Assembly: GCA_002633005.1 (NCBI GenBank)
Contig: NMRA01000125.1
Location: 715,566 to 779,565 of the forward strand
Source of the DNA: Phoronis australis
Lineage: Eukaryota > Animalia > Phoronida
Length of the DNA stretch: 64,000 nucleotides
Direction of reading: 5' to 3'
How positions within the stretch are numbered: the first letter of the stretch is position 1; each line of letters opens with the position of its first letter. Below, one piece after another: positions 17,069-62,284 of this stretch. A program made the position numbers and the translations under genes. A model generated the notes under the pieces. It did not search any database. It was not told where the DNA came from and worked only from the letters and a program-made list of their open reading frames with translations.

Positions 17069-19063
17069 ACCTTCGGAACCCTTCGGGCATTTTCATAGTC
17101 TCAAATTTCCCCCTCGCTGGAGGTAACCGCGTGCAGACTTCAGTAATGTGACTTCCAAACGGGATTGGGTCTGCACACGCGCAGATAATGTTCACCTTCG
17201 TGGGAAAGTTTGATTCTACAAAATAACCTACAGCCGTAAGTGTTGCGAACGCTGAAGAAAATTTGAGGCTACGAAAATACCTGATGATGCGCGAATTATG
17301 GTCTACATGAGTACTTTTCATTGGGCCCACCCCGAGTATCAACGTACCTTCAAATTTGCTCTCGCGATGTTTCGTTTCTGCGCATGTGCGACCGCTATTC
17401 TTATCAGGGAGTCATACATGTACATGTACATGTACATATATGTAGGCAGGCTAGGGATTGAGCTCGCTGGTTCACTGCGTGCCGCTAGGTGGTCAGTAGC
17501 CAGCACCCAGGTATCACTTTGATTTTCCTCGGGAAATTTTTTTTACACCGGCGATTGTGATTGGCTAGTCGAATTCTCAAACGCAAACTAACTGGCATGA
17601 CTGATAGACATAAGTGTAAATGTGGCCTGTTCTACAGACAAATCGGTGGAGTTCCTGATTTTTCTGTGTTTATTTGATACTTAAAATTTATGTTGAGGAA
17701 ATGTGAATCCTAGAAATTGTGGTTGCGCCTTTTCGGAGTTCATCTTTCTGCGATCGATGACTTTTGTTAAGATACTGTCCTGCATTCATACAGTGTGAAT
17801 AACACACCGGTTAAATCGGCCAGATATGTGTTTATTGTACATGTATGTGCTTCAAGCACGCGGTTATTAAACATCACTGCAGAAACGAAATAGTTGCTGT
17901 TACGCCACTTGCATGACAAGGCTAAAAATCGTTCACAGTCCGCTATTTTTTCACGGTGTTGTAAAGCTAACCAATGACTGCTGAGGTTACATCAACCAAT
18001 GCTAAAGTGCCTGCCACTGCGTGATACCTGCGTGCTGGCTAGGTACGTAGGGAACCAGCGACGGGATTGAGATACGTAGCGCCCTCGTGTGATAACAGTG
18101 CCATCGCCATGACACCAGTAGACTGTAACACGAAGAGTACTGGCACTTGTCTTTTGCCTTTAGTCAAAAATTGTAAACAATTGTTTTTTGCCTTCGCGTT
18201 ACTCGGAAAGTTTTGTCTTCTGATAATTCGAGCACATTATGGATTGACAAATTTTCTGACTTTCAATCCAAGTTAGATTTCAGTGAAACAGGCCGAACAA
18301 TTTGTTGACAAAGGCTAAAATACTGTTCGAGAAATGGGCCCTAGGAATTGATGGTGTGTAGATGTCATTGCGCATTACCGAGTTCCTACATGTATGTATA
18401 CATTACAACAATCATGGGGTCTTCAACGTTTCTACCGGAAAGGAGAGTGGCACCGTTGTTAAATTGACTCTATCTTCTGCTGAACCATACTAGCGTTTAG
18501 TGGAGAGAAAAACATCGATATGTTCCAGTAGAACTTCATTCGGTCGGTACGCACACATTGGTTGAGTTCACAAATCAACATTTTCGACTACCCTGTTGCG
18601 AGTATTACACCGATCAATTTGCTACCATGAAGTGTAAGACAGTCGCCTTATGCAGGCGTTAAATAGTTACAGGGACTCCTTTCAGCGGAGCCTTTCACAG
18701 TGCACTCTTGAACAGTAAACGTACACCAATTCGTCGTTCGCTGTCTCGCTTAATTTGATTTTATATGCGAAAAAGACTGCTGAATTTGAAGTATATTCTT
18801 ACAATATAGCCAATGAGACACTGGATGAACATGTGCTTGCCGTTGAAAATGCCTTTGACTGAACCTACAGTAGTTAGGCATTGTGGATAACGCAAGGAAG
18901 AAAGTCGAGAACGAATTTTTAAACCTGCTAGGGCGAAGCCATGGTTTTTAGCAGTCTCTTGATGGAATTTATTTGGCGTTGACATTGAAGTCTACACCTG
19001 TGCTATTATGAACCTCGAAGGGAAATTTAAAGCTACGAAAATACCCGAAGTTTTCCGGCAGTA
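17069..19063. mobile_element. Old TIR element (GGGTATTTTCGTAGCCTCAAATTTCC family) enclosing a younger MITE
   Basis: Left CGGAACCCTTCGGGCATTTTCATAGTCTCAAATTTCCCCCTCG matches the reverse complement of 19015-19060 (CGGAAAACTTCGGGTATTTTCGTAGCTTTAAATTTCCCTTCG). Further internal copies of the motif at about 17258-17283 and 17332-17357. Confidence 0.55.
17463..18062 (+). mobile_element. ~600-bp MITE with hairpin-containing TIRs, copy 1 (flanking direct repeat GGGATTGAG)
   Basis: TIRs CTCGCTGGTTC...TAGCCAGCAC.CAGGTATCAC / GTGATACCTGCGTGCTGGCTAG...GAACCAGCGA; GGGATTGAG at 17454-17462 and 18063-18071; full-length homology to 46749-47328. Confidence 0.92.
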
Positions 19064-19081: not shown

Positions 19082-19462
19082 AATCTCAGACCGTTCAAAA
19101 CAAATTTATCCTGACTCATAGCTCGTGGTATAAAATGAAGTACTTGTAACTATTACGACTGTTCCTCTAAAATCCCACACAGCGCTACCAGGGCACGTCG
19201 AACTGGTAAATTTCCAAATGAAATAAATCATGGTAGCGGCGGTGAGTCTCCTTATTAAGAAAATTAAGAAANAATCTCAGACCGTTCAAAACAAATTTAT
19301 CCTGACTCATAGCTCGTGGTATAAAATGAAGTACTTGTAACTATTACGACTGTTCCTCTAAAATCCCACACAGCGCTACTAGGGCACGTCGAACTGGTAA
19401 ATTTCCAAATAAAATAAATCATGGTAGCGGCGGTGAATCTCCCTATTAAGAAAATTAAGAAA
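19082..19462. other. 190-bp direct duplication separated by a single N: probable unmerged contig overlap (two haplotypes)
   Basis: 19082-19271 and 19273-19462 are identical except for 4 substitutions and abut the N at 19272 exactly. Confidence 0.9.
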
Positions 19463-30095: not shown

Positions 30096-30446
30096 GACAC
30101 AGCACCACCTATACTGAAAAGTGGCCCTGTGGAAACATGATGAGCAACACGACGGAATTGCGTTTGTGGGCACCAATGCGCATGGTTGGTCGGAAGTAAA
30201 TTGATCACATCGCCACCACTTAACACACGCCTTCAGTGCACTGTACAGTACTTCTTATTTGGGCTTAGCCACGGGATCGGGATTCTTTGATTTTGTTTAC
30301 TTCTGCCACTGCCCGTTTTAATAAATTGCAAGTAGTCGAAGGTGGTCGACAACTGCGTAACAGTAAACTAAAAGGGGTTTCCCAGATTTCAACCAGTGGG
30401 AATGGTTGTATGATATGACGTCGGTTTCATTACTTTTACCAATGAA
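30096..30446 (+). repeat. ~340-bp interspersed repeat without obvious TIR or TSD, copy 1
   Basis: Homologous along its length to 36311-36650 and, inverted, to 51691-51989 (TGGCCCTGT, ACGGAATT, CATCGCCACCACT, TTTGGGCTTA, GATTTTGTTTA, AACCARTGGGAATG). Confidence 0.9.
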
Positions 30447-33400: not shown

Positions 33401-36310
33401 TTTGTGTTCGGGAAACGGTCTTTTCTGAATGCCGTTTTTCTCGTACTTTAGACCAAAGCTTGGTTTGAGTCCTAAGTCACTTTTCATGACACTGGCTCAA
33501 GCGCCCGGATGTAAGACACTTCCCGCCGTGAACTCAACTGTGTTCCCTAACTTTTCACCATAGTCGTGAACATGTTCAACGAAGTTCTCATTATTCTTTC
33601 TAATGCTGTTTTATCTTCGTTACTCAGCTTTGATGCAAACCTAGGATAAACGCCATGTTGAAGTTACAATATTGTTGAAAATGAATACATGTAGGGGGCG
33701 GTTTTTACTCAACGCCCCCAAAGGACTTGGTCCATCTTCATTTCCATTGAACTAAGGGCCCAGTTTCAGAGATATTATAAGAAAATCTCATGAGTTAAAG
33801 CCGAGGTCATAACAAAAATAAATTGATAGACAAGCATAATATTTTTGACTGAGTTAGCAAAGGCAAACGCCGAAGATTTTGGGGACTTAGCTTTGTCAAT
33901 TTGAGAACGTTAAGTATATGTAACTGAACAGAGGTAGTTTGATTGGTTAACTTTTGAATATTACGTTGAATGCCGCCCTAGAGCGGAGGTGGACGGAATT
34001 AAAATTCGACACGTTCTTAAAACGCCCATGAGGAAAGCTTATGTGAGTACGCAGAAAATGACTGGTGGCATTATGTTCAGGATGACATCACCTTGACACT
34101 GTCTACTTTTAAACAGATGTTTAGTCTGACAATCTGAAGTCTCGTCAAATAATAATAACTAAATTGGGTTGGTTATGTATTGGTCCTGTAGCTTGTACCG
34201 TGGCACTGCATGTGACGTTCAAAAGAGCCAACTGAAAACCCTTCTGCTCTCTCGATATTCATTTCTTTGTTCAAAATCATTAATACCGTTCACCTGTACA
34301 ATCTCCTGCGGTACACCTGAGTTCAAACAGGTATCACACCAGTATCGCCGAGCTTGCGTTTTAGAGTAAAACTAATTACAAGAGAGATGTTGAAAACAAC
34401 TGACACTAATATGAAGTTATGCACGTATGGAGCGCATCAACGTGCATAACCAGTTGTTGCATACCTAATGATTACTGACATCTCCTGCTGTAAATAGTTT
34501 TATTCGCACGAAAAGGAAAAACAAATTGTCCGCAACGTGGCGTGACCATTAATATTAGTGGCTTCACTGCAGAAAAAAATCAGGAGAAATCAAGCGATTT
34601 CATTTGAATAGAGCATGTATGCACTTTATTTTTGGCTTAACAGACATTCTTCTGCGGTGTTGCTCGTAAACTGGGCAAAATTCTTTAGTTCTGACCACGA
34701 ATTGGAAAGTTGAAGACATCAACATTTTGAAAAACAAATATGCATAACGTAGGATTTCCAAGCATCTGTTTTAAGCACTACCAGTTAATGCCTCAAAACC
34801 TGTGTCGGCGATGTGTAAAGAGCGTCATACAGAAAAGATATTAAGATTTAATGATGGATTGCATTATAAGGACTACTGCCTAAGTAACGTTTTAGGCTTC
34901 AGCAATTAGTTCTATGCCTTTGTGATGCCGTTAACTGCAATGATAAATTAGTCACAACTAGTACATGTATCTGTGTCAAAACATTTGATCTTTAACGCCG
35001 TGTCATCAAGCATAAGTGTTCTGAACACGACAGCATCCATGTTTTATTAATTAACACAGACATTAACCGATATGTCATAAGCGACTCTTCCGTTGGGGCT
35101 AACCGGATTGAATGTTCTTGCTACCTTGAGGGAAACGAACACTCCCTCTATTACTAGCCAAACAGTACATTTTTAAGGAGAGATGTCACAGAAATATATC
35201 TAATATTCACAAGTTTGTTACATACATGTATACTGATGAGTACTATAATGCTGAAAAATTAATAGCATATAAAAATTTTGTGTATGACAGCTTTTCTGGG
35301 AAATGTTATTGTTCATGTTTACTCCATGTAGCAGTTGTTTACTTCATACTAGATATGAGAATGGTCTCTCCTGAGGTGTGCATGGGTGAATGTGTAGCTT
35401 TAACACGCTTCAGTCACATGGTTTTGCTTAAAACAAAATAGGCTATACCATTGAATACTTGCATATACATAGCATGAGTTTATGGGACGAGCCATTAAAA
35501 ATATTTTTTCAAAACCAGATTCCCTACGAAAGCTTTGCTTTCCCGGTTAAATTATTTACGAATGGGGTCAGTGGCTTGGTAATACACAGAAGTTTACATT
35601 TTTTAACAGAACCCTTCACTACAAAAGCGTTCCATCTTCTGTCTTAGGCTTCTTGACTTAAAACGCTTCAGTCCAAATGTGAGTTTGTTTTATTTAGTTT
35701 ATTTTCCTAAACGAGCATTATGTAGGATTTTAAATCTCTTCGAGGTATTTTGTAAGGGGAATAATCCCTACGAAATGATGAAGTTTCCATAGAAGCTCCC
35801 AACAAATGGGTGATTTTCAATCGTGCTATTATCTTGTTAACTCCCTACGCGGGGTGGGCATCTACGTCAGAACTGCCGTCGATTATTCCACCCCCGCGGC
35901 TAATACATGTACATATGTAAGTCTTCAACAAAACACCTTCCTTCCAGTGGTGCCGGCACAGGTACATGTAGGAGTGGCCCGCCCTGGACTGAGGCCGCCT
36001 CTGAAACTGCTATGCATCCGCGTTCCCGTCAAAGAAACGAACTGCTCAAAATTCGAAGGGTGAGTGAGGTGTGCCTCAAGTTCAGGACGATAACCGAACT
36101 GGTCGTTCCTCCCAAGCCCAGAAAGCACCTCTCCGTGAAGCCGGAAACAGGCTGACCAGATACCACTTCCATATACATGTATAGCGGTAGTCTAAACTAA
36201 AAGTCATTCTATAACATAATGTGGGATTATAATAACTTCACATGTGTCAGATGTTAAGTACACTGCGCCTATTGAAATGTAAGCTATTTCAGAGCAGTCA
36301 CCTACCCTCT

Positions 36311-36650
36311 GAAACAGCGCCAGTTATACTAAAATATGGCCCTGTAGAAACTTGATGAACGACACACGGAATTCCGTGTGTGGCATCAATGCCCATGCCT
36401 TGGTCGGAAGTCCGGCTACCGATCACATCGCCACCACTAGCTCACGGCCTTTATGCACTGCACTTGTTTGGGCTTAAGCCAGTGGATTGAGGTTTCCTGG
36501 ATTTTGTTTACTTCAATCACTGACCGTTTTCATAAAATGCAGCTATTCAAGTCAACGTGGTCGCTATACTTGATAACTGGGTTTCCCAACTTTCAACCAA
36601 TGGGAATGATTAAATGTTATGACGTTGATTTCAATACGTTAACCAATGAA
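36311..36650 (+). repeat. ~340-bp interspersed repeat, copy 2
   Basis: As copy 1; contains the perfect 20-bp palindrome ACACACGGAATTCCGTGTGT (36362-36381). Confidence 0.9.
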
Positions 36651-38962
36651 CCCATGTCAACAAATATTCGGCAGTGCTACATTCCGTAGCATTGTAAACC
36701 AGTGGGCAGTCAACCAAGTGCCATGTGACTAGTGCGACGAAGTGTACATGTATATACTCGGCAAAATCGAATCGATCGTGTTTCAACCTCAAGCATTATA
36801 AAAAGGGGAATGTTTAAATAAAAGGTCTCAAGAAAAGTGTGCATGTGATTGATCATTGGAGGTCAGGAATCAAGTTGTTTATGCGTTTACGCATGTGTTA
36901 TAGAGGCCGTAAAACATAAATGAATATACAAGTGCACATATGAACTACACGTACACGATCCGCCATTAATAATTTTTATGAAATGTTACTACGGAATTAA
37001 CTAAGGTGAACATTTCATCTCCCATATACTGTTAGTTTAGATGCCAGTCAAATGAAATGCAAAACCGCCCAGTCTAGGTGCGGACTTGGCATTTCTAAGG
37101 CCGGGTCTTTATAGACCACGGCACTCTTAGTAACGCTAATCATCTGACGGATGAGACGTGATTACACATTGAATGCTAGGCCGCTGTTAACGTGATACTC
37201 TTCCAACATCTTTGGTTGGTATTGTTGCAGTATTGCACGCAAGTACCAGCCATTCCAGCTGTCTGTGCTTGAGTAGAGTTGGGGCACTGACCGTGCAAAT
37301 CACGTTCGCGTAAAAAGCAGCGGCCAAAAAAGGGTAAAGTTTTAAATCCGACTTGGCAGTCGTATGCTTAAAACCACATCACCGAATTTTTTAGACTACT
37401 GTTAAAGGACACCGTTAACTGAGAAATATGTGTGTAAGCCTTAAAAGATGACTTACATGTATGACTCGCTGGATACAAGTATAGGTGTGCACATGCGCAT
37501 TTATGTAGAGCTGTAGGCGACGCCATCTATTGTCGAGTCAGATAAGACAAAAATGAATAGTGATATACTATACTCTCTGCAATTCGTTGATATACCTCAC
37601 CTTTTAATTATGCATTCACACATTCAGAACATTACAATTGAGGTAGGGGTTGGCTAAAGCGCATAACACACTCCATGACTTCTGAAGACTTTTCTTAATT
37701 GTTTTAAGATCATAAAATAGGTGACCATTACAATGTGTCCAAGCCACTTGCTTCAAAGGACGCTTATTTCGAGTCTGTGCATACATGTACATATATTTTG
37801 AAAAAAGAGAGCTTAGCAAAATGGGATAAGGATGGTTGCGTGTTCTGAAACAAAGAGATCGCGCACAGGTTTCAAACTAAGTCGGGCAGAGACCAGGACC
37901 GATTTTGGTATTTTCTTGATCTTGACATGGTATTGCCTTTTCAGTAAAGTAGATCGTGCTTCGTAGGTGTAGAGTCCAATATTGCTACATTATGTACAGT
38001 AGTTGGTGTGGTGATTTGGCGGTTACGTAAATCATAAATTATCATTGATTCAGTTTTACTGAAGCTGGTAAAATGTGAAATTTTATTTTGGAGAGAGTTC
38101 GCATCAATCATAGTAACTTTGGTCAAATCCTGCATCAGTGGTCGCTCGATTGTCATCAGTTTTGCGCCTCCCGGCGCTCACAGTTCGACTTCCCACCCCA
38201 AGTTGGCCATCAAGGTCCAAAACTGCAAATTATTGGAAAGACACGTGCTCCTGCTTTCTGTGGTTCTGTAATGGTCGCGTTATGTAAATTGAAATTTTTG
38301 TATTTGCTAACATTGATCGATTTGATTCAGGTCTGTAGGAACTGTTCAGAGATTTTTCCAACAAGAACTAGACAAGTGACGGAGAGTAGTACTTTTGTTG
38401 TGCACTTGAAGTACACTGTACACGTAATTAATACCCACCGTTGGAGAGCTCTTAATCACAACATCTCTCGTTTGTTAAGCTGAGCCAACCCGTTTTAACT
38501 TGTAAAATTTGTTCTGCATTGTGCCTTTGTTTAGCGACGACATTTCTTTTTCGTCTCGAGGCAACGCAGCGAGCGCCTTCGGTTACTAGCGCCTCGTTAA
38601 AGGTCCGTACATTTACGTGCGCTCGACATGACATTAGCGAAGCACAGTGGAGCGGTTCAGAAGAAAATTAAGTTGCACTTTTAAGTATCCATCTAAATCA
38701 ATCCAATCTGCCTGTATACATCTCCCATTGATTTTTAAAATGCACTCAACGAGTCTTCGTGAAGGATCCTCAGCCACAATACGTGTTCACAAATACGTTA
38801 TAAGTAGTAAAATTAAACACTGTTGGTAGCCTGCTCATTCATTAGTTCTGGATCCCACAGCTGGATGAAGTGGGTCGGCTATGCAGGTGCCGTTTCTCTG
38901 ATGTGCGGTAAGTGGATTTCTGCAGTCTTATCTATGTACCAGTACGCGTAGAGCCCTCTAGC

Positions 38963-39036
38963 CTTGCTCTCCGTGCACCTTGTAGATCTGTGCTTCCCTT
39001 GCTATCCGTGTACCCTGTAGATCTGTGCTTGCCTTG
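38963..39036. repeat. 35-bp tandem duplication
   Basis: CTTGCT.TCCGTG.ACC.TGTAGATCTGTGCTT.C present twice. Confidence 0.85.
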
Positions 39037-40267
39037 GTTTTGTCTTACATGTACTTTGTGTTATTGGTGTAATAGACCAGAGTTATCGCCTTAAAGACAC
39101 CAATGCTCGGTTTTGCTTAATAGCCTGACAAATTTACAGCTTGAACAAGTGTTTTAATAGGATTTACTTGTTCACAAATGATCACTTGTCTGCAAGCATT
39201 TCGGTAAAGCTGTAGACAATGTTTTTGCTCTACCACGTGTGTTTTAGAACCCCAAATTTCCCTTTTATTCTTGTCTTTTTTACAATGTGAACTTGATCTG
39301 AGTGTGTTGACTTGTTTTTCTTCAGTCTTTAGTCTTGTTGTTTATCTTAAATGCTGATGTAGACTTTTTAGGAAGATCAGTACTGATATTTTTTAAGCAA
39401 TGTTCTGATTTGTGTACAATTGGCGCAGTGGTACAACACCAGACTTGAGAGGAAGAAAAAATCGTATCATTCCAAAGTTCCAAGCTCAGGAAGTTTTCCT
39501 TGACCAAGTAAGCAACCCACCTCTGTGAGTAGCGCTACATACATGTAAAACCACTTGCTATCTATCATCGACCTCGTTTCTCGATTCAGCGTCAAGTTCT
39601 CCATGGTTTTGTACCATTTTAGTGCCCCAATTAGATCTTGCTACGCTGACAATTTGGTAGCATTTGTGGTACTATAATAATTACCGGGATCGTTTTGTTT
39701 AACACTAACACGTTCGTGGATTATTTATTTGCATGTACATTGTACTGTAAAACGCAAGGAATAACAGCTGCCTAACAAGTATCGACGTTTCCAAATAACT
39801 GCAAACCCATAATCATGGACAGAGATAAGGACAGTCATAATGATATTTATATTCACGTGTTCACACTATTCCTGTTTTAATGTTACGACGTGTGAAGACG
39901 TGTATGTACATGTACATACATACATAGTGTTATAACTGTTATCTACTCAAGCGCATTGGGCTGAAGCCAACGTGAAGCACAGGGGGCGTACCCTTTGCCA
40001 CACACACGCACGGGCGCGCGCTCACACACGCACCGCAGAAACGCTTACCACGGCCATTAATCCCGATCACACTAAGATAATCTTATCACAGACAATTGTA
40101 TAGTCACGTGCAGTTAATTAAAAATTCTCTGTGGTAAGATTGTTTCCTTTTTGGAGTTCATGTTCCTTTTAGAGGGTTTTTGTGTACTGTTTTCGAAATC
40201 GAGCACCGTCGGCTGCGCTGAAATAATTAAACAAAATCGCATACATGTAAGCTTTTTGGTGGTTATG

Positions 40268-40284
40268 TATTTTCAAATTTTCAG
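40268..40284 (+). promoter_or_regulatory. Probable 3' splice acceptor of a 5'UTR intron of the GPCR gene
   Basis: T-rich tract ending TTTTCAG|G 43 nt upstream of the ATG; neuropeptide GPCRs with intronless CDSs often have a 5'UTR intron. Confidence 0.55.
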
Positions 40285-40327
40285 GTTATGATATTTGAAG
40301 TCGCCAAATAACACTCAGTGTTAAAAT

Positions 40328-41596
40328 ATGGCTGGCCTTGTTGTGAACTCAACGGACACGTCAGTTGTAGGAGAGACTTTGCAAGATATGGAGAACAGCA
40401 TGACCACAATTGGAGCCGTTATCTCGAGTATGAACAACCTGTCAAATGATCTTGATGGCAATGCATTTGGGCCCAAACCGTTCAACGTGGTGTGGCTACG
40501 TGTGATTTTTATCTTTTTATACTGTATAATTTTCCTGATTGGAGTCAGTGGCAACTTCTTAGTCATATTTGTTGTGTTACGCAACAAAGCTATGAGAACG
40601 ATTACCAATATCTTCATCACCAATCTAGCAGCCAGCGACATCATGTTCTGCTTAGTCATTGCATTCACGCCCATGGCGGCATTGATGGATTCGTGGCCGT
40701 TTGGATCCGGCTTGTGCCACATTGCACCGATGATATCGGCGGTCAACGTGTTTGTCTCCACGTTGACATCAGTAGCCATTGCTGTGGATCGATACTTCGT
40801 GATCGTCCATCCGTTCAAACAAAGAATCAAGGTTTGGCTGTGTATCGTGTTTATCATGGCTATATGGCTCATTGCCGTCAGCACCTCGCTCCCCATCCCC
40901 GTGTATATGAAACACTATTATTTTAAGGGTTCTTATAAGTGCGAGGAAAGCTTTCCTGGAAATGGAGAACCGTCCAGATTCTACACTCTGATGCTTATGA
41001 TCCTTCAGTACATCGTACCATGCATCATTATCGTCTATTGTTATACCGCAGTCAGCATGTCATTGAAAAAAAGATCCCTGATGAAACTCGGCTCGAAGAG
41101 TCGGGAACGCGAGGAGATGGAGATCAAGCGCAAGCGCAAAACCAACCGGATGTTGATTTCTATGATCGCTATCTTTGTTGTGTGCTGGTTGCCCCTCAAT
41201 TTGTACCACCTCATTACGTCATTCATGACCACGGACAAGGCGACAAGCAAAGAATCAGTTCTGTGCTTTTTGATAACTCACATCATCTCGGCGTCGTCCA
41301 CTGTCTATAATCCGTTCCTATATGCTTTCATGAACGACAACTTCAGGAAGGAATTTAACCAAATCATCCCCTGTCTCTTCCGAAGTGTTGAGAGTCGAGG
41401 GGCAACTGGTGGATCGACCTATACGGCAGTTGAAACGCAAAATTCCTTTGTTAATCGATCGCCGTCGCGAGAAATCATTAACAATCAAAGTGCAGCGAAC
41501 GGAAACGGAAACTATAACACCATGAAAGGAGCAACTGCAAGCTACGACGCAGAAGCAGAACAAATACATCTTCACGTTGGAGAAAACGAGGCCTAA
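40328..41596 (+). CDS. Class A (rhodopsin-like) neuropeptide GPCR, short neuropeptide F receptor / prolactin-releasing peptide receptor-like; 422 aa, intronless CDS
   Basis: Seven hydrophobic helices with canonical motifs: GN (TM1), TNIFITNLAASD (TM2), WPFG..LC (ECL1/TM3), STLTSVAIAVDRYFVIVHPF (TM3), W in TM4, CEE in ECL2, QYIVP (TM5), KRKTNRMLISM..CWLP (TM6), H..SSTVYNPFLY and NDNFRKEF (TM7/H8). N-glycosylation sequons at N7 and N37. The motif set resembles sNPFR/PrRPR-type receptors as recalled; orthology was not tested. Confidence 0.95.
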   Translation: MAGLVVNSTDTSVVGETLQDMENSMTTIGAVISSMNNLSNDLDGNAFGPKPFNVVWLRVIFIFLYCIIFLIGVSGNFLVIFVVLRNKAMRTITNIFITNLAASDIMFCLVIAFTPMAALMDSWPFGSGLCHIAPMISAVNVFVSTLTSVAIAVDRYFVIVHPFKQRIKVWLCIVFIMAIWLIAVSTSLPIPVYMKHYYFKGSYKCEESFPGNGEPSRFYTLMLMILQYIVPCIIIVYCYTAVSMSLKKRSLMKLGSKSREREEMEIKRKRKTNRMLISMIAIFVVCWLPLNLYHLITSFMTTDKATSKESVLCFLITHIISASSTVYNPFLYAFMNDNFRKEFNQIIPCLFRSVESRGATGGSTYTAVETQNSFVNRSPSREIINNQSAANGNGNYNTMKGATASYDAEAEQIHLHVGENEA

Positions 41597-42251
41597 GATG
41601 TGCACCATAAACTAGTGTGCACGTACTGAGTATCAGTGCCCATGCATTGGCGAAGATGATGTCTCGTTTCGCTGTTTACGTAGCGTTAGAAGACATGCAT
41701 CCGGTCTCGATAAACAGGTCTACTTGCAATGAGACGGCTTTGCTTCCATTTTCAGACGTTCGCTGCATATCTGGTTGTATGTCTGTCTCGTGATTCCCGT
41801 GACTTCACTCTAAGAGTTATGAGGACTACAACACTGCAAAAGTGTTGGGTCTCAAATGAAACAAAGAATTTTACGAGAATGTTAATGATGCGGATACGAG
41901 AAAGGTAACGGATTTTCTTCGTTAACATCATCGATCTAGTCACATGGTGGGTCAAATGTGTCATCCGACGATTGTCGGGTAATTTTGCTAACCTGAACGA
42001 CGCGATAACGAGGCGCTGAGAAAAGCTTAGCCTTGCGTGTCTGAGTTTTTTGCTTCTATGACTTGCATCTTTCAGAAAAAATATGGTTGTTTTGTGATCG
42101 CGGTCCTTTATTAAGACGGGCGTTTTTTCTCGGATTTTTCGCCTTCCGTTCTGGTTTCGAAGGATTAGCTAGAAATGAGTCGGGGATATTCACCAGTCTT
42201 TAAGAATATCAAGATGATTATGGGTTGCGGAAACCTCTTCAGATAAGGTGG

Positions 42252-42257
42252 AATAAA
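42252..42257 (+). other. Candidate polyadenylation signal for the GPCR mRNA
   Basis: First AATAAA noticed downstream of the stop codon, about 655 nt after it. No transcript evidence. Confidence 0.25.
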
Positions 42258-43270
42258 CACCTAACCTTGATTTATGGTTATTTCACCAAAAGCTGGCTTG
42301 GTCACCTACTAATGCACCAACAGTATCTCCGGTCCCCTGTGACTGGTTTAACACGTACGTTACTCACACTAACTAATTAAGCAGGTTTTGTAAGGATTTT
42401 CCAAACTTGCTCAATTTTAGTGCTCACTGCAGTGGCTGGTCCTTGTTTCACTTTACATTTTTAAATGGCCAAATCGTTGGATAATATTCGATAATAGGTC
42501 CAAACCGGGTTCAATGTATTGTCTTTGACTACACGTCGGCGCTAAGTCACAACGTACCCAAGTATGACGTTTATAATTTATGCGAAGTTGTAATACAGTT
42601 AACGTAACTGTGAACCTCAAAACAAAAAAATAACATTTTTTTTGATAAATGCTTCCTTTAATATATTAGCTTTGATTTAGCATTTTATAGGAATCGAGAC
42701 AAATTCAAAAACACGCGTTTTAGAGGTTTTTCACTAACCACATTCCTCCGTCGTATCTCTTCTATTTCTGTCTATGATTTAGTCCAGTCCAATGACTCAG
42801 TTACACTCTCGGTAATTTCCGCGATCGGCCATCACCACCGAGCGTTTTAAAGCTACCGTCATTTTTGTAAGTCAACATTCATTCATAGGAGCTGTGAATC
42901 GAATCTGAAATATATAAAAATGTAAGCAATGGCGTAATATGTCGAGAATTCATATTTGTAAGCATAATAGGCAGAAGCTACAATTTATTGCGTCAGTGAA
43001 CTCGCTGATTGTTGCATGCATTCGGCTTCTCAGTGTATTTCACACCTCCAAAATCCTGGACCCGGGGATCCAGGTCATCTGCGATACGCCAACTACGGAT
43101 TTATATCTACCATCAGACATTAGTTATGAGGACCACAAACAACACGACACTCGGTTAGTAAACTGATATTTGACCTCTGGTAGTACCCGCCCTATGGATT
43201 ACGAATATGGAAAATCAGACACTTCAGTGTCTCCGATAAAATGAACGAAAGGTCCTCCCGTTCCTGACTA

Positions 43271-43711
43271 CGTCGTGACACCATTCAAGAGTCTATTAAA
43301 TGTAAGCCGTTACATGCTTGTAGGTCATGGTAATATATTACTACAATACAATTACTCTGTATTACTCTTCAACAAGCCCGCAATGAGACGGTCTTTTGTT
43401 TGAGCAACGAGAACAAGTGCGAAGTCGCGATACCTAGGAGTTCTGGGATAGCGGTACTTTCATCTCAGGCTGCCGCTTTGTAAATTCGGCGCAAAATACA
43501 GATTGCCGCTAGTCTTGAAGCTGAATATAAGCCAAAATCTTGACAACAAGAGTGAACATCGACTTGATCCTGGAGCGCACTATAACACGCATGCAGGACT
43601 CGTTGAAGAGTGATACGGTGTGTAATGTATTGTAGTAATACATGTATATCACAGCGAGCGGCAAGCATGTAACGGCTTGCATTTAATAGACTCTTGAATG
43701 GTATTACGGCG
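43271..43711. mobile_element. Foldback/MITE with ~115-bp inverted arms
   Basis: Arms about 43271-43385 and 43590-43711: ACCATTCAAGAGTCTATTAAATG.AAGCCGTTACATGCTTG...TTACTACAATACA...ACTCTTCAAC match in inverted orientation; spacer about 200 bp. Confidence 0.88.
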
Positions 43712-44206
43712 TTTGGAACTGGTGAAAGATCACAGTTTTGCGAACTTGATTTGTACAAGAAAGGAAACCAACAGACAGGGATATAGTTCTATTTCGCAAT
43801 GTGAAAGTGGTTCAAAGTAGCAACAAAAAATCATAGCTAAATCTCGCCCTAGCTCGGTCATTTCTTGACGCATCTCGCAGGGCAATTCTCTAAGTATTTT
43901 TTTTCTGTGCTTTTTAAAAATTCTCCATGATGTCGGTTCTGTATTTTATTTACGCCACTCCCTCGTGGTAACAACCCTTCTCGATAAAGCCGCCTTGACC
44001 TAGTTTAAAAGACATACAATCTCCGCCTACAGTTATTCACGTGATTTTAACCCGCATTCTGACAGACTCGATTAGGTCGTTAAAACTGATTCAAGGCTAT
44101 TCCTAAATTTCTGCATTGTGCAATACCCAAATTAATCATACATGTATGCTGAAATTATAAATACCCTGCTCGAGTTACTGTGAAGATTACTTGCTCTCAC
44201 AGTTAA

Positions 44207-44753
44207 GAAACCCCTGAAAGTTCTTATAAGATGAGAAATGTGCACTCCTCAATCACCGCCGTGCGTTATTGCCGATTTTTCGCGTTGCGACTTTGGAGTT
44301 TATTTTAATTTTTGAACATGGATTTCTCGGCGATGACATGAAATTTCGAATGCTTGCTATTTGATACCTTTCAAAGGAAACCGGATCTCAAAACCTCGAT
44401 TTAGGTCCTTGTTTTCCGGGACGAAGCCTTCAAAAATCAAAAGTACGACGTTTTTGCTCAAAATGCTCTAAAACCTCGATAATCAAAAAACTAAGACCTA
44501 TTTCAGATATTCGAATCACAGTTTCCTCAAATATGTCATGATCATCGTGTTGACAAAAGACCAATATGATCGGAGGAACAATATTTTTAAAATCTCTGTT
44601 CAAATTCAAAAAATCACCAAAACCCATATCGGTAAAAATTGAATACAAGTAAAAAAGATTAATAAATTTTGTTAGGAAATTCATTCACCTTTCAGAAAAT
44701 ATGTACTTTGTAGGGGTTACAGCTAGCAGAATTTAAGATACGTGTAATTGTTC
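44207..44753. mobile_element. Degenerate TTAA-flanked TIR element (Kolobok-like)
   Basis: TTAA|GAA...TTC|TTAA ends; ACCCCTGAAAGT near the left end matches inverted ACTTTGTAGGGGT near the right end, with a deletion in the left TIR. Confidence 0.45.
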
Positions 44754-46748
44754 TTAAATACAACCTGGCTAAATAAGGTTCGTACATGTAGTTACCTAAC
44801 TTTATAAGTGCAAACAGCATATGCGCGATGGTGTGTACTGGTCCAGCGTGCGACCAACAGATCATGAGAAATAAATGGTCTGTGCGGATGGTTTTAATAA
44901 TCCCCTTTTCTTTATATGCTTACCTGCAGGTACCTTAACCGCATCACACCATTCATTTTACGTGGGATCGGTAGTCACGTAATCGAATTGACTGTGTAGC
45001 TAATTTCATTACTATTTTTGTCAATTATAAAACCGAGAAGCGTTCTGAAGTCCAGTTACAAATGTGAGCTGCACCAGGGAGGAGGGTGGTAGGTATACAT
45101 GTATGTTGTAGGTGGGAAGCTTGGGTCACTCAAACGTGATCTCTAAACCATCACAGGTGATCTGTATCAAATTAAATGTAACGGATAAAACAAATCGGAA
45201 CAAAATCGGTTCAATGCAGAATCAATTGCCTCTGAAAGACAAGCTGCGATTGGTCCATTTTCAACTTGAGTCTCCAGTTAAACTTCAACGGTACCAGACC
45301 CTAACTCCAAACTGTATCAGTACTCGAAAATGTAACGATGAACGTTAGAGCCCCTTACTGAAGACAATTTCATTTTGGCCTGCTTTCAGTACAGTTAATC
45401 TGTTTGCATTAAGGGGGTTCGTACGAAACCATGCGAATGAATGTCTTCAATGATGTCAGTGGAGTCTTAAAATGGCACTTGTAACACTTCAACCAATGTT
45501 CAATTAATCGCTGTGTTGGATTCATGTATAAGTAAGTGTACAATGCTTTGAATATGGCACTTCACCGTACAATATGCGGTTATTGTATAAGAAAATCAAA
45601 TCGGTCACGGTCTGCGTTCGGAAGTATGTTAGGAACGGAGACAGTGGTCGTGCAGTTCTTGTTGGTCGAATTTGTGAGTCACCATTTTGATCGCTTTCAT
45701 GTGCTTTGTTATTAAATGTCTGCACCCTGTTCCTCCTGTGTGTTGTTTCCTAAAATAAAGCGTTGTTGTCCCAACAACTTGTGTTACTTAATTAAATTGA
45801 AATGCTGTAGACGGACGTTCGTTAATGTCGAGTGACCGTCCGGGGCGTGGCCCCAACCGGTCCAGTCAGTGATCATCATGTGAGCGCTGTCTGGGTGCTG
45901 TTACAACTGAAAGCTCTTAGGGACGGACACTATTCTCCAACACAAACTTAATACTATACCCCGCTGAACCAAATAAAGAATCAATTTGTTTGTTGATGAC
46001 AATGCTCCGGTGGCTTGGCCGCTTTTACACAGCAAGTCGTTGGACTATAGCTGAGTTACTTACAAAGCCAGTTGCTGCAACAGTTTCATATCCATAAGCG
46101 ACCACCAGATTTTCCGTTCCACAAAATCCGTCTGGGAAAAAGTTCTGCTGTAACAATCGATGCGCTTCACATTTGGATTTTCATGAATTCTCGTGGCATA
46201 CATTCGAATCCTGCTTTCAATAGTTCCCCTTCACCTACCATTGAATTAACGTAGTTGACATCGGCACTCACGCAGCCGCCTCGATACCAGGTAGGCTTCA
46301 GTTTGATTGCAACTGAAACTAATTATGGAAACTAATTATGATTTTTTCATGGTTTCTGACCACTACAGAAATTTTACTATTGGAATGGCTACAAACTTGC
46401 CAGACGCCTCAGACACTCCATTATAGGCACAACGCTTTGTCACTGAAATAGCGGCGCACACTCATCCCAAGATCCGGTGACGTCATCGCCTTGTGCCTTC
46501 AACTTCCTTAATTTAAATTTTGAATTTTCTCCATAGACGTATCATATATTGCCATTGCAGTTCTTTGGAATCCAATTGAATAACGTTCCCAGTGCCTATG
46601 TTTTCCCCTAAAGCACCATAATGTGTTCTTGTCAGTTGTCATCGTAATTTAAACGTGCATCTTGAGCTTGGCACAGCGCAATACAACGGCGGTTTTCATT
46701 GGCTGTCAGCTAGCATTTTTAACAAGGAAGTAAGGGCAGATATACTTA

Positions 46749-47328
46749 CCTCGCTGGTTCCCTGCGTGCTGCTAGGTGGTCGGTAGCCAGCACGCAGGTA
46801 TCACTTAATTTTCCTCGGGAATTTTTTTCACACCGTCGTTTCTGATTGGCTAGTCGAATTTTCAACAGGCAGCGCTTTACACAAGCAAACTGATATAACT
46901 GATGATGGACTGAAGAGTAAATGTGGTCTGTTGGGCAGACAAATCGGTGCTTAAATTTACATGTATGTTCAGGAATTGTGAATCCTAGAAATTATGGTTG
47001 CGCCTTTTCGGAGTGCATCTTTCTACTGTCGATGACTTTTGTTTACGATACTGTCATGTATTCATAAATTATGAATAACACGGGCTAGATATGTATTTAT
47101 TGTACGTGTATGTGCTTCAAGCACACGGCTATTAAACATTACTGCAGAAACAAAATAGTTGATGCGACGCCACTTGCATGACAAGACTAAAAATCGTTCA
47201 CAGTCTGCCATTTATTTACGGTGTTGTAAAGCTAACCAATGACTGGTGAGGTTACACCAACCAATGCTAAAGCGCGTGCCAATGCGTGATACCTGCGTGC
47301 TGGCTAGGCACGCAGGGGACCAGCGAGG
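46749..47328 (+). mobile_element. ~580-bp MITE with hairpin-containing TIRs, copy 2 (8-bp TSD TATACTTA)
   Basis: TIRs CCTCGCTGGTTCCCTGCGTGC / GCACGCAGGGGACCAGCGAGG; TATACTTA at 46741-46748 and 47329-47336. Confidence 0.95.
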
Positions 47329-47977
47329 TATACTTATAAAGTAAATAAATTCGGTAAAGCGAACGTTGGATGTCTCTGGTGAGCTAACTACTTAAATTGT
47401 GAAATTATCAAAGCGTTAGTCTGCAATGGATGTAATTATCGGCTCCTAATTATTATAAAAATAAACACAACTTAAGAATGGCCTCTCATTTTTCCCGAAC
47501 CTACTTTTGGGACAGCATTTTTTACCCATGATGCAGCTGGAGAGCCACAGACAGATTGCACTTTTACAGCTTTGCTTAGTCAGACCTGAAGTAGTTTTTC
47601 CTTCAGGTATTGATGTGAGACAGAGCCTTGTAAAATATAAAAATAATCAATAATGGAAATCTCAATCCCTTCTTAACTCTCAGTACTGCGCGTTTCACAG
47701 TGTGACATCTGTAGAATTGATGATGACAGGTCCCGGGGCCTTGAGCATCCAGAAGTTTAGGGGGCACTGCTAGTTTCAATTACCCAGCCTCGATCATCAC
47801 CTCCCTCCCCTGCACACAGTATTCACTTCCCAGAACAACACGATTTTTGACTCTCGGTCGCCGCTATTCTCTGGCCACACACCATTGCCATAAATATTAC
47901 TCCCCATTGCCCTCTGTCACAAAGTTCGATGCTATGGTCTTGAGGAGGGGTCCCCGCACAAATCGAGGGTCCTTAGA

Positions 47978-48356
47978 CATTTGAACAGCTTGGGTATTTT
48001 GTAGCCTCAAATTTTTCCTCAAAGACTTATGCAACTTGCGCATTTGCAATCATACGGTAAGATATATGACTCAAAGTGGAAAAATGATTGGCCGTAATGA
48101 CCGAAATTTGTTCATGCACCTATAACATTCACCTCAACTGGAATACGGATCACCTCAGGTATTTAGAAGCCTCAAATTTCCTATAGGATGTGAACAGTGC
48201 CTGTGCGCATACATGTAAGAACTCCTTGCAGTCAGACTGTTATTCTAAAAATGAAAATCACTTGACTTGTTATATTACGAAAGTTCGTGCACGCAGATAA
48301 GCTTCACCTCCGAGTGGAAATTTGAGGTTACGACAATACCTGAGGTGTTCTAACTG
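47978..48356. mobile_element. Same TIR family as 17069-19063, short copy with CA...TG ends (Tc1/pogo-like)
   Basis: GGTATT(TT)GTAGCCTCAAATTT at about 47993 and 48158 and inverted at 48316-48347; the right end reads CAGTTAGAACACCTCAGGTATT on the minus strand; GCAGATAA..TTCACCT is shared with about 17180. Confidence 0.6.
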
Positions 48357-48535
48357 TTCCGAGGAAAATTGAGCCATGAGCTTTAGCCTAATGGACAATC
48401 TAGTACTGGGGGAATACCCACCCACTAAACAGTGGGTTCAAAAAGACCCATGGAATGGGAGTTAAATGAAATGTATCTCTTTCATGATTTTTATTCCTAA
48501 ACCACCGCCCATTTTGCCAAAATCTTAGGCCCTTC

Positions 48536-48692
48536 CAAGGCGGATACAGGATTTTGAGTTGGGGGGGGGCAGGGTAGGGTATTAGCCAGGATTTTGTCCA
48601 TCCGCCTTTTGCACCCCCGAACTGCCAAATGGAATCTGGGAGAATTTTAGGGGGCCATGGCCCCCATTGGCCCCCCTCTAAATGCGCCACTG
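48536..48692. mobile_element. GC-rich hAT-like MITE remnant
   Basis: The right end reads CAGTGGCGCATTTAGAGGGGGGCCAATGGGGGCCATGGCCCCC on the minus strand; the left end CAAGGCGGATACAGG is degenerate. Confidence 0.45.
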
Positions 48693-48962
48693 TTTTCATA
48701 GTGGTTTTGGACAGCTTTTTAACCCTCTAAACTTGTCCAGAGGTACTTGGCATGTAGATTCCAAATTGTTAAAAGTACTGATATTAAAGTCTGTCCATAT
48801 TTTCGTAGTTAGAAAATGGTACCTAGGGTTTTTGACTCCCAGAATGAAACATGTTGTATTAATGTGAAAACCTAAGCCTTGTGACTACTGACTGAAGAAA
48901 TATCCAATCCTTCCTAGGCACAAGAAACCGTCAGTTTGAGTTAAGTGATCCGACTCAGTGAA

Positions 48963-49106
48963 CATGGGCACCGCACCATAGGGGGCTGGGGGGCTATAGC
49001 TCCCCACTTTTTTCAGTGCTACGCCGCACATGATCTATAGGCGGTGCACCAAAGGGGGGCTGATGGGGCTTTAGCCCCCACTTTTTTCAGTGCTGCGCCA
49101 CCCATG
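48963..49106 (+). mobile_element. Dimeric MITE of ~70-bp units, copy 2
   Basis: CATGGG...CCCATG termini, two tandem units, flanks GTGAA / TTGAA (4/5 match, possible 5-bp TSD). Confidence 0.75.
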
Positions 49107-50382
49107 TTGAAAGTTTTGCCACACGTTGGACACAGGATTTGAAATGTAGTATAGTTTATTTGCAAGCATTTTTTCAACGAAACAGCTTCGTAACTTGTAG
49201 TCGCGTAGAATGTCCCATTTTATATGTTCCAAGCCAACTCTACTGCACAGCTTTGATTACAGAGAACCTTGATAGTTCCATTGGGCTCTTCAGTCAGAAA
49301 GGTTCCGTGTTGCAGTTTGACTGAAGTTAGCAGATGATCACTGCAAACGACAACATTAGACATCATGTGTTCGTGGAAAAATAAATAGTCGACGACTCAA
49401 AGCCTATGAGTGGAAGACTTGCATAGATGGCCTTATTATAGAGAATATGCCCGTCTGAAGGTTACTTAGCCATTGCCAGAGTCCGTGTGGACGGGGTGCA
49501 TTTCTTTTGGATGGAACTACATGTATAAAGCGATTCAGTTTTGTTACAAAACTACTGAAGAGTTTGCAAGTGAGGCTTGTTAGGCTAAAAAAGAATATAG
49601 GTCAGAGAACTTTTTAGTGGAAACTTGATGAACTGTAAGTAAGGTCTTTGCCTAATACTAGTAATGTCCGCATTGTTCATAGATGATCGTAATGAAATGG
49701 CTTTCACAAATGGCTGGGGTTTGATCTTACACACTATACCAACGGGTGGGTTCCGAATTTCACAGCTGAACACCCCCTCAAAATAGTCGATTACCCCGTC
49801 TATCGCGAGTCAAGGGGCTGCTGATTGGTAGTATGATTTCAGTCATATAGCCTACATGTATGTCTGGAGGTTTACGACCGCTGACTGTATTCCCATGGTC
49901 TTAACTAAGCCAATGCAGAATATAAAAGAATAGCAGTATATATTAAAATATCCTAGATGCCGACTAGAGGGTAACATTCGCGGTAATGCCTGTGCAATTG
50001 GATGTTCCGGGCATCATTTTCTACATACACTTCGCATTTGTGAAGAAAACGTGGCGGTAAAAAATGAAAATTGATATTAGCAATCAGGAAAATTCCTCGG
50101 TATTTTTTAGCAAGTCGGAGCGCGGCCATTTCTGAAATTCGTTACTTTGCAAAATGGCATCCATTATAAGTATATTTCATACCTATATGTTTTGAGGGTT
50201 GAGCATAAATGAAACAAAATCATTTTCTAAGTAAGTCTTTGTTTCTGTAGCATACTTAACAATGCGGTAGCATTTGCATAATTCTTCTTTGGCAAAACGG
50301 AGTTCACATGTACATGTACGTACACTGTACATGCATAGAAGCCAATAACAACAGTACACCCATAAGTTTACATCATTCGAAC

Positions 50383-51297
50383 CTTTCGCCAGACAACTGG
50401 TCATTTTCCCTTTCATCCTCTTCACAAACTTCAGTGATCGTGAGATCAATCACTGAGGTTTGGAAGGGTAAGGCAGTATTATAAACACACTGAATTTAAC
50501 AGTCCTTCATCTCCCATCCACTATCAGATAACTCGTCGTTTTCCTCTTTCATCCTCTTCACAAACATCAGTGATCGTGATATAAATCACTGGGTTTCGTA
50601 AGGACAATAACACACTAGATCTAACAGTCCTTCATCTCCCAGACACCGTTTTATCATTACCGCATTCTCCTGGAGCGTACAGGCGTAGAAGCAAGAAATT
50701 TTCACTGTCACGATTTAATCAAGAATCGCGCTCGATTAAACTCGTTGAGAACGCCTTTTGTGTCTGTACACAATTCTGTGGTTAAGCTGGTCAGAGCTTA
50801 CAGTCACACAAAGGAATCAACAGGTGAATGTTAACTTTTTTAATTTCTCTGAAAGTCAACTGTTTTCCTCCATTTCAAATTTGTGGTGAAAGTATTTCAT
50901 ACACCACACATCTGCTCCACGACATTTGTTGAAAATCGTTTGCAAATAGTATTATTAAATGTCGGTTAGCGTCAGGCGCGCTGTTTACAAGATAATTGCT
51001 GGATTAAGTGAACATTCGATGAAAAGAGACATGAAGAGAGCTGGATTATTTAAACATCGGTTTCCAACTGTCAAACTAATGATGACACGGCTGTATCCCG
51101 ACTGGCCGATCAGTCAGTCGGGATACTCATTCCACTGCGCTGGTGCGTAACGTTTTTATAAACTTTCGTCAGACAACAGGTCATTTTCTCCTTTCATCCT
51201 TTTCACAAACATCAGTTACCGTGAGATCAGTCTCTCAGTTTGGAAGGTTAGCGCAATATACATAAACACAGGTTCTACTAGTCCTTCATCTCTCATC
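50383..51297 (+). repeat. Three local copies of a ~135-bp hairpin-containing unit (50383-50516, 50525-50640, 51163-51297)
   Basis: CTTTCATCCT.TTCACAAAC.TCAGT...GTTT..AAGG...AACAC...AGTCCTTCATCTC present in all three. Confidence 0.88.
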
Positions 51298-51690: not shown

Positions 51691-51989
51691 TTCCGACGTC
51701 AAAACATTCAGTCATTCCCATTGGTTAAAATATGGGAACCCCCGATCAGTTTACAGTTACCGAGTGCGGCGAGCAGCTTTGACCAAAATAGTTATATTTT
51801 TTAAATGGTCAGTGATCGAATTAAACAAAATCAAGGGAACCCCGATCCATTGTCTTAAGCCCAAACAAGTACAGTGCGCAGAAGCGTGTGCAAGTGGTGG
51901 CGATGCGCATTGATGCCCACACACGGAATTCCGTATGCCGTTCATCGTGATTACACAGGGCCACTTTTCATTATAGGTGGCGCTGTGTC
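51691..51989 (-). repeat. ~300-bp interspersed repeat, copy 3
   Basis: Reverse complement of copies 1 and 2 with an internal deletion; begins on the minus strand GACACAGCGCCACCTATAATG. Confidence 0.9.
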
Positions 51990-52349
51990 AGAGCGTACAG
52001 CACCACGACGATATCCGTTTTTTTGTTAAGCAAGTGTGACTGCATTTGGAGATCGAAAATAGTACTATTCTTGTGTGAATTGAGCAAGTTGGTTGTTGTG
52101 GATTTCTGGGAGTTTCCGATTACAAACCCAAAAGAGACTTCCTGAACTCTGATCAGAAATAAGAAAGAATAGTGAATAGAGAAAATTTTGGTCAAGAAGA
52201 GGTATATTTTGACGCGTACATGTAGCTCGCCGTAAACGCAACGAGTGGGACTTTTCATTACAGTGAGCATGGTCATTCCAGATTTAGGCTCGTTGACAGC
52301 TCAAGTATATGTAATCAAAGTCAGGCGTTTCTCCCAAGACATACTTGAC

Positions 52350-61159: not shown

Positions 61160-61570
61160 TGTAGTTTTGGTCTGTTGCACAGACAAATCGTTGATTAATT
61201 CATATTCAAGAAATATGAATCGGAAACTTGCGGTGGTACCTTTTCAGGATGCATTTTTCTATTGTCGCTGACTTTTGTACGTTGATGTCCTGTATTCACA
61301 CACTATGAATATATACACCGGCTAAAACGGCCAGAAGTGAGTGCATTGTATGTGCACGCGGCTATCAAACATTATTGCAGAGACGAAATATTTGCTGTCA
61401 CGCCACTTGCATGACAAAGTTAAAATCGTTCACAGTACTTCATTTTATTTCTCCGTTGTAAAGATAACCAATGACTGCCGGGGTAACATCAGCTAGTGAT
61501 AAAACGCGTGCTACTGAATGATACATGCGTGTTCTCTACCCCCTAGCGGACACGCAGGAAACCAGCAAGG
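61160..61570 (+). mobile_element. Same MITE family, copy 3 (5'-truncated, more diverged)
   Basis: CAGACAAATCG, ACGCCACTTGCATGACAA, AAAATCGTTCACAGT, GTTGTAAAG.TAACCAATGACTG and the terminal CACGCAGGAAACCAGCAAGG. Confidence 0.85.
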
Positions 61571-62284
61571 TAATTAGCTTGCAAAACACGACGTAAATAG
61601 CATGTATCTTAGAGAAAAAGCCGACAACAGCATTACTAATTACCAATCCCTGAAAACCACACTGATGATTATTGCTTATTACAAGGTTATGAGCGGTATG
61701 CGTATTTCGTCTATGTGATAGAAGGCGTCACTGTTTCTTTACATGAAGACTGCGGACGGGTTTAGAAGCCAAATCTGCCTTGCTCTCGTTTTTACTTTCG
61801 TTGCGAGAGCCACTGGCATAGGAATGGAGGGTGGGGCACCCATGGGCTATGGTCTTCTATTCAGTTCATAAAGTTTGTCAACTCAGTCAAAAGTTATTGT
61901 AGTTTTATGTTCAACTGTAATATCCCCGCAAATTGCTACAAATTTTACATGTAGTCTCCACTGGTCGCCAGAAATTTGGCGTTCGCATCCCCCGGTCACC
62001 CCAACATAGAATATTTCTGACAATGCGGCAAACAATCAACGTCAATAGATAACAATTCATGACAGACAATTCTATTAATGATTTAGTTCATGGCACTTGG
62101 TCAACAAAGTTTATTAATGACTCGGTTGATGACAGATACTAGGTCAACAAAGTTCATCACAGGTAACGGTCTGGACTTCAAAGAAAGCGAACGACTGCCT
62201 CTGTGGCGTAGCAAGGTGGNTGGTAAAGAGGTGCTCGCTACGCTGCTAGACTGATTACTGTCATTTCAGGTGTTCAGGGTACAG

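What the first reader, a model, noticed from the sequence alone, without database searches (positions are those of the whole stretch)
46958..46965. Direct evidence 1: CATGTA gained at a TA in one of three MITE copies
Copy 2 reads AAATTTA-CATGTA-TGTTCAGGAA. Copy 1 (17684-17700) reads AAATTTA-TGTTGAGGAA and copy 3 (about 61195-61212) also lacks the hexamer. Two empty copies polarise this as an insertion made after the MITE copies diverged.
Basis: seen in the sequence. Interest (0 to 1): 0.75.

Follow-up and report, generated by a model that had tools for sequence, protein, structure and literature searches.

The report
Transposon scar gained inside a MITE
One copy of a common short repeat in this animal's DNA carries a six-letter piece (CATGTA at a TA) that most of its sister copies lack, so it was added later, likely as the scar left when an unrelated cut-and-paste jumping gene landed there and hopped out again.

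Summary
Confirmed. TACATGTA lies at 46958-46965 inside a 580-bp MITE, and two window paralogs lack it. The family, very roughly 200 copies, is mostly empty here: 214 of about 460 through-aligned reads show one 5-letter gap, and the clipped reads' consensus lacks the hexamer. So this is a gain in copy 2. Caveats: the net gain over the majority is +5, because copy 2 also lacks one A, and copy 3 belongs to another subfamily. The word occurs 57 times against 1.4 expected. All 3 sites with an alignable paralog show an empty TA state. Companion words (TACATA, TACAGTA, TACAGTGTA) and a Tc1-like flank bias are enriched. Best reading: a Tc1/mariner-type excision footprint with both 2-nt overhangs filled in. 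The responsible element was not found; the host MITE has the wrong ends and target duplication. The footprint is known from C. elegans, and this scan has noted the same scar field in urchin and mollusc DNA. It is a clean polarised example of a known kind, not a new system.

The parts
46958..46965 (.). TACATGTA: TA + CATG + TA, the gained piece (likely excision footprint)
46749..47328 (+). Host MITE, copy 2 (580 bp, terminal inverted repeats CCTCG...CGAGG with inner inverted repeats)
   Evidence: (I19, I20)
46741..46748 (+). Left 8-bp target duplication of copy 2 (TATACTTA)
   Evidence: sequence
47329..47336 (+). Right 8-bp target duplication of copy 2 (TATACTTA)
   Evidence: sequence
17463..18063 (+). 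MITE copy 1, flanked by GGATTGAG twice; empty TA at 17689-17690; 31 extra letters at 17649-17679 that copies 2, 3 and the clipped-read consensus lack
   Evidence: 494 of 557 aligned letters equal to copy 2
61168..61572 (+). MITE copy 3, 3' part only, second subfamily; no hexamer at 61195-61212
17838..17845 (.). Second TACATGTA inside the MITE: present in copy 1, TACGTGTA in copy 2 (47103-47110), plain TA in copy 3 (61349-61350)
   Evidence: direction of change not polarised
43639..43646 (.). Independent case: exact +6 CATGTA at a TA in one arm of an inverted repeat; the other arm (about 43331-43341) is empty
   Evidence: (I2, I21)

Best explanation
Copy 2 of a MITE gained TACATGTA at a TA that most of the family has empty, likely as the footprint of a Tc1/mariner-type element that inserted and later excised. 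Shown: the gain, its direction, the same insert at unrelated flanks, and the window-wide excess. Inferred: (1) an element with CA...TG ends (probably CAG...CTG) inserted at the TA and duplicated it; (2) excision left a 2-nt CA overhang on each flank; (3) in the germ line both overhangs were filled in and joined blunt, giving TA-CA-TG-TA; (4) the neighbouring A loss is a separate slip in an A run or an error during the same repair. The host MITE is a bystander target.
For: Family empty at the site (214 of about 460 reads with one 5-letter gap; at most 94 of 457 keep copy 2's T at 46956; 23 of the 24 contig pieces shown lack 5 or more letters, my arithmetic from table 8). The same CATG core appears between three different flanks, and all 3 motif sites covered by a paralog alignment have an empty state in at least one paralog. 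No 6-bp tandem duplication can make it here; only 4 of 52 single loci allow one, and 46958 is not among them. Companion words expected from the same break are enriched: TACATA/TATGTA 63 vs 42.4, TACAGTA/TACTGTA 16 vs 8.5, TACAGTGTA/TACACTGTA 8 vs 0.57, each reached by 0 of 100 shuffles. Flanks read Y-R-T in 29 of 108 half-sites against 7.5% of other TA (p 1e-9), close to the Tc1 target consensus CAYATATRTG (PMC9635669 passage). Tc1 breaks carry non-complementary 2-nt 3' overhangs (PMC4490562 legend), and the TACATGTA product is listed among germ-line revertants, 3 of 39 in polq-1 and 2 of 27 in xpf-1 (its supplement 4, part 2).
Against: No source element found. The best TA|CA..TG|TA pair in the window (20 of 24) lies inside a longer inverted repeat; the next score 17-18, as do shuffles (16-18). 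No genome is held, and no occupied allele of this site was seen. The net gain is +5, and no single 6-letter-gap row is among the 12 shown, so a second private change within 4 letters is needed. In C. elegans this footprint is the minor form: 78% of somatic excisions give TATGTA/TACATA (PMC12632400 passage), and PMC3520976 calls taCATGta rare and rejects a footprint origin for the same word in Phytophthora. G at flank position 4 is not significant (p 0.12), and decayed chains may inflate the Y-R-T bias. TACAATGTA/TACATTGTA is also enriched (5 vs 1.2), which CAG ends alone do not predict.
Confidence: 0.75

Rival explanations
1. A fixed 6-letter insertion made without a full insert-and-excise cycle, for example by an abortive transposase reaction or a host nuclease plus a fixed fill-in, at Y-R-T-flanked TA sites.
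For: No source element in the window. One product dominates (57, against excesses of about 21, 8 and 7 for the companion words), unlike the varied Tc1 spectrum in worm germ cells. Earlier scan notes on other genomes also report that the element was not found (unchecked).
Against: The new letters CATG must come from somewhere other than the flanks; element ends supply them, and the mixed 2+3 form TACAGTGTA fits CAG ends. 64 kb is too little to expect the element.
Confidence: 0.1
2. One imprecise repair event gave a net +5 change (A>T plus ACATG, or flank loss plus fill-in), and the perfect word is partly an alignment choice.
For: Reads show 5, not 6, letters left out (125 + 89 reads), and 274 of 457 read A at 46956. 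Both parses need two steps.
Against: The product is exactly the word that is 40-fold enriched, and the case at 43639 is a clean +6. A 1-letter slip in an A run is common: 62 of the 109 indels between window paralogs are 1 bp.
Confidence: 0.07
3. Slippage or templated copying from nearby sequence made the insert.
For: Flanks often resemble the word; chains of the hexamer exist at 17415-17434 and 19880-19893; some family reads carry CATG here (TTCATG variant).
Against: The majority empty site has no CATG next to it; no 6-mer duplication yields the filled site; the same core appears at three unrelated flanks.
Confidence: 0.04
4. The hexamer is ancestral and the other copies lost it, or the word is kept by selection as a transcription-factor site (as shown for PsMyb37 in Phytophthora).
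For: PMC11134190 abstract: a MYB-related protein binds TACATGTA. PMC3520976 passage names Irx factors as binding it. At the second site (17838) copies 1 and 2 share the word, so it can be inherited within a subfamily.
Against: Both subfamilies are empty at 46958 in the read consensus. Selection could keep such sites but does not explain exact gains in neutral repeats. One-mismatch decay forms are in excess, 65 vs 35.
Confidence: 0.03
5. Assembly or library artefact.
For: No locus-specific contig across 46958 could be picked out.
Against: A 6025-bp contig with 1 other letter and no gaps (run X3) spans 36604-42628, which holds seven other copies of the word. Decayed forms, several of them transitions, are in excess.
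Confidence: 0.01

Closest known systems
Tc1 excision footprint taCATGta of Caenorhabditis elegans (Eide and Anderson 1988, seen only as cited in PMC3520976; product rows in PMC4490562 supplement 4)
   Same: Identical eight letters; net +6 at a TA; explained by two non-complementary 2-nt CA overhangs; target flanks T-G-T at the unc-22 site and on the right side here; companion +4 words present.
   Different: In the worm it is a minor product (somatic excision gives TATGTA/TACATA in 78%). Here it is the dominant word, about one per 1.1 kb and 1.3% of TA sites. The element is known in the worm and unknown here; flank position 1 is Y rather than T.
Footprints of other IS630-Tc1-mariner elements (ZB, Passer/pogo, Sleeping Beauty)
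   Same: TA target; a few terminal letters left at the donor site (0-3 bp for ZB, 0-4 bp for Passer; passages). TACAGTA/TACTGTA is twofold enriched here.
   Different: The passages seen give lengths only, not this word as the main product; the 3-letter core form is minor here (16 vs 8.5).
TACATGTA promoter motif of Phytophthora (motif-1; PsMyb37 site)
   Same: Same word, also very abundant in non-coding DNA.
   Different: Read there as a transcription-factor site, and a footprint origin was dismissed without an indel test in the passages I saw. Here the word is shown to arise by insertion.

Membership tests
Tc1/mariner-type excision footprint | Gain at a TA, with TA on both sides of a short core | tested here: met
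   empty TA state for 3 of 3 motif sites with a paralog; at 46958 with one extra A difference
Tc1/mariner-type excision footprint | Core not copied from the flanks | tested here: met
   Same CATG at three different flanks; tandem duplication possible at only 4 of 52 single loci, not here
Tc1/mariner-type excision footprint | Companion repair products of the same break | tested here: met
   TACATA 63 vs 42.4, TACAGTA 16 vs 8.5, TACAGTGTA 8 vs 0.57; 0 of 100 shuffles each. Their origin as insertions was not polarised.
Tc1/mariner-type excision footprint | Symmetric target preference beyond TA | tested here: met
   Y 76/108, R 74/108, T 49/108, Y-R-T 29/108 vs 7.5%; G at position 4 not significant; Tc1 consensus
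Tc1/mariner-type excision footprint | Core equals the terminal letters of a resident TA-targeting element with a DDE/D transposase | tested here: inconclusive
   None found in 64 kb; none of the 4 non-GPCR ORFs scanned (of 18 listed) hit Pfam; no genome held; notes on this genome list no Tc1/pogo element
Tc1/mariner-type excision footprint | An occupied allele of the same site | not testable with these tools
   Locus-specific reads cannot be told from paralogs
MITE (host element) | Short, non-coding, terminal inverted repeats, target duplication, high copy number | tested here: met
   580 bp; arms 96% complementary over 23 nt; 8-bp direct repeats in copies 1 and 2; raw-read depth about 1,100 against about 5-7 in neighbouring single-copy bins
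Host MITE as source of the scar | CA...TG ends and a TA duplication | tested here: not met
   Ends CC...GG with 8-bp duplications

The most novel reading that the evidence does not exclude
In this animal, and likely in many marine invertebrates, germ-line repair of transposon breaks is so uniform (fill in both overhangs, join blunt) that TACATGTA is a countable fossil record of past jumps, about 1% of all TA sites, far outnumbering surviving elements. Each scar creates a preferred half-target (TA-CATG), so scars breed chains. High-copy MITE families with a known empty consensus then serve as clocks for the rate of insert-and-excise cycles, and the Phytophthora MYB site may have been seeded the same way.
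Probability: 0.4. Interest if true: 0.65.

Novelty: new member of a known kind. Interest (0 to 1): 0.36.

Why it matters
The single event is ordinary. Its use is as a well-polarised proof that the most over-represented 8-letter word in this DNA arises by insertion, not by selection of point mutations or by slippage. If the footprint reading holds genome-wide, transposon traffic in these animals has been much larger than counts of surviving copies suggest, and motif searches that report TACATGTA as a regulatory site need an indel control. Seven literature searches returned no paper describing a genome-wide field of these scars in an animal; most subscription journals are not in that library.

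Tried and rejected
Whole-genome consensus: no genome held, so reads were used instead. Metagenome scans for more MITE copies: 0 hits for an internal pattern; 1 hit for a terminal 20-mer, which proved a chance 25-letter match in 75% GC DNA (L001) and was dropped. A 20-kb lay of reads to find segregating CATGTA indels was swamped by repeats: 12 of 62 indel rows were shown, none a 6-letter change, so it says nothing either way. Presence of copy 2 in the second sample (X5) is unresolved: depth is 0 at 46885-46896, but also in two of three contig runs of the first sample. Search for a TA|CA..TG|TA element in the window: nothing convincing. Hairpin-type (hAT) palindromic repair was rejected by reasoning: it would copy the flank, and the right flank here (TGTT) does not give TACA. 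The bacterial promoter scan is irrelevant to this animal DNA and was not above chance (3 vs 1.6). No motif lies in the GPCR frame, but only 1.1 is expected, so this is uninformative. The primary Tc1 footprint papers (PMC363199, PMC452867) are not held. Scan notes near this place, on TACATGTA in this genome, and by MITE sequence: none.

Full report
Observation. The word TACATGTA is at 46958-46965. It lies in a 580-bp element (46749-47328) with terminal inverted repeats and an exact 8-bp target duplication. Two details were missed. Copy 1 has four A before TTTA where copy 2 has three, so the net difference is five letters. Copy 1 also has 31 extra letters just upstream of that A run (17649-17679), which confuses automatic alignment.

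Polarity. No genome is held. I found four contig runs of one sample holding 76-89% of the words of 42000-51000, and one raw-read run of a second sample with the same species label. I laid four of the five on 46885-47055 at 80% likeness. Raw-read depth is about 1,100 in the body of the element, against about 5-7 in nearby single-copy bins (at 88%): very roughly 200 copies, from uneven Hi-C coverage. Depth falls to about 216 at 46957-46962. Of about 460 reads aligned through the site, 125 and 89 show one 5-letter gap at 46959 and 46956, and all 12 indel rows shown (27 not shown) are letters left out at 46956-46967. At 46956, 274 of 457 reads have A and 89 a gap, so at most 94 can match copy 2 there. 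The consensus of 214 reads clipped behind 46955 and of 111 clipped before 46964 runs as copy 1 does at 17683-17700 apart from single letters, without the hexamer and without copy 1's 31 extra letters. A second group (62 and 73 reads) has the TTCA form of copy 3. Of the 24 contig pieces shown (2,140 not shown; some are one locus in several runs; gaps are not placed), 23 lack five or more letters by my arithmetic. The number of reads that carry the hexamer cannot be read off exactly.

Context. The word occurs 57 times, at 54 loci, against 1.42 in shuffles, and is the most frequent 8-mer in the window. Three of the 57 sites fall inside paralog alignments, and each has an empty TA state in a paralog: 46958; 17838 (TACGTGTA in copy 2, plain TA in copy 3, not polarised); and 43639, a clean +6 against the opposite arm of an inverted repeat. 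One-mismatch forms number 65 against 35 expected, which suggests decay of roughly 6-7% per site (inference), similar to the age of the MITE copies. The DNA is from an invertebrate-like animal: about 40% GC, with an intronless rhodopsin-type receptor at 40325-41596 closest to the PrRP and NPY receptors. I did not place it further.

Mechanism. The insert is the same at three unrelated flanks, and a 6-bp tandem duplication fits only 4 of 52 single loci, not this one, so the letters come from a fixed outside source. Tc1 excision leaves non-complementary 2-nt 3' overhangs (PMC4490562 legend); filling both gives TA-CA-TG-TA, a product listed in 3 of 39 polq-1 and 2 of 27 xpf-1 revertants, which were selected for restored frame (supplement 4, part 2 of 2). 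Other words expected from such breaks are enriched: TACATA/TATGTA 63 vs 42.4, TACAGTA/TACTGTA 16 vs 8.5, TACAGTGTA/TACACTGTA 8 vs 0.57, while TACACTA (6 vs 8.5) and TACATTA (6 vs 13.8) are not; this points to CAG...CTG ends (inference). Flanks read Y-R-T in 29 of 108 half-sites against 7.5% of other TA, near the Tc1 consensus CAYATATRTG (PMC9635669 passage). A scar itself offers TA-CATG, a good half-target, which would explain chains such as 17415-17434 (idea taken from scan note e1-9988772; only the flank bias was tested here).

Against. No source element was found: the best TA|CA..TG|TA pair scores 20 of 24 but lies inside a longer inverted repeat, and the rest (17-18) equal the shuffles. 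The host MITE has CC...GG ends and 8-bp duplications and cannot be the source. A second private change (one A) is needed at this site. In C. elegans the +6 form is minor (PMC12632400 passage; 'rare' in PMC3520976). TACAATGTA/TACATTGTA is also enriched (5 vs 1.2). The same word is a tested MYB site in Phytophthora (PMC11134190 abstract).

What I saw of papers: passages of PMC3520976, PMC9635669, PMC12632400, PMC9976928 and PMC7913693; passages, a supplement search and part 2 of supplement 4 of PMC4490562; the abstract and outline of PMC11134190; search listings only for the rest. Eide and Anderson 1988 and Plasterk 1991 were not available. Seven searches showed no paper on a genome-wide field of these scars in an animal; supplements of bioRxiv preprints were closed and were not searched. 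That A-run slips are common and that hAT elements leave flank-derived palindromes is from my own knowledge.

Earlier scan notes describe the same scar field in sea-urchin, bivalve, oyster and other mollusc DNA, also without the element; they are unchecked AI notes, and my reading before seeing them was already the Tc1 footprint at 70%. Verdict: observation confirmed; insertion about 95% sure; Tc1/mariner-type footprint about 75%; a new, well-polarised member of a known kind; interest 0.36.

Noticed in passing
window 17838-17845, 47103-47110, 61349-61350: A second hexamer site inside the same MITE is shared by copies 1 and 2 (one transition in copy 2) and absent from copy 3, which also lacks 7 letters just downstream. 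It may be an old scar fixed in one subfamily's master copy and spread by MITE transposition.
   Followed up: partly
window 43270-43712: Inverted-repeat element, high copy in reads, whose right arm carries an exact CATGTA gain at 43639 against the left arm.
   Followed up: partly
window 17410-17440: Chain of three perfect hexamer units with decayed units after it, about 25 letters left of MITE copy 1.
   Followed up: partly
window 30244-30250: TACAGTA inside a repeat whose two window paralogs (36299-36650, 51693-51997) lack 8 letters there: a possible 3-letter-core footprint.
   Followed up: partly
window 17649-17679: 31 letters present in MITE copy 1 but absent from copies 2, 3 and the clipped-read consensus; origin unexplained.
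   Followed up: no
window 40325-41596 (+): Intronless 423-aa rhodopsin-type GPCR, best solved matches PrRP receptor (1e-54) and NPY receptors; likely an sNPF/PrRP-type receptor (family name from recall).
   Followed up: partly
window 19082-19462: Two 191-bp tandem copies, 97% alike, with an N at 19272 between them: likely an assembly gap with overlapping ends.
   Followed up: no
window 36604-42628: Contigs of runs X1 and X2 are 18 letters longer than the window and than run X3's contig: probably a heterozygous 18-bp indel, place and letters not shown; 18 is a multiple of 6.
   Followed up: no
window 46749-47328: The MITE's CC...GG ends with an 8-bp duplication match no superfamily I could name from recall; its autonomous partner is unknown.
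   Followed up: no
window 48596-48665 and 48972-49106: Very high-copy short repeats (raw-read depth up to about 2,750 at 48661), the first running into G/C tracts in other copies.
   Followed up: no
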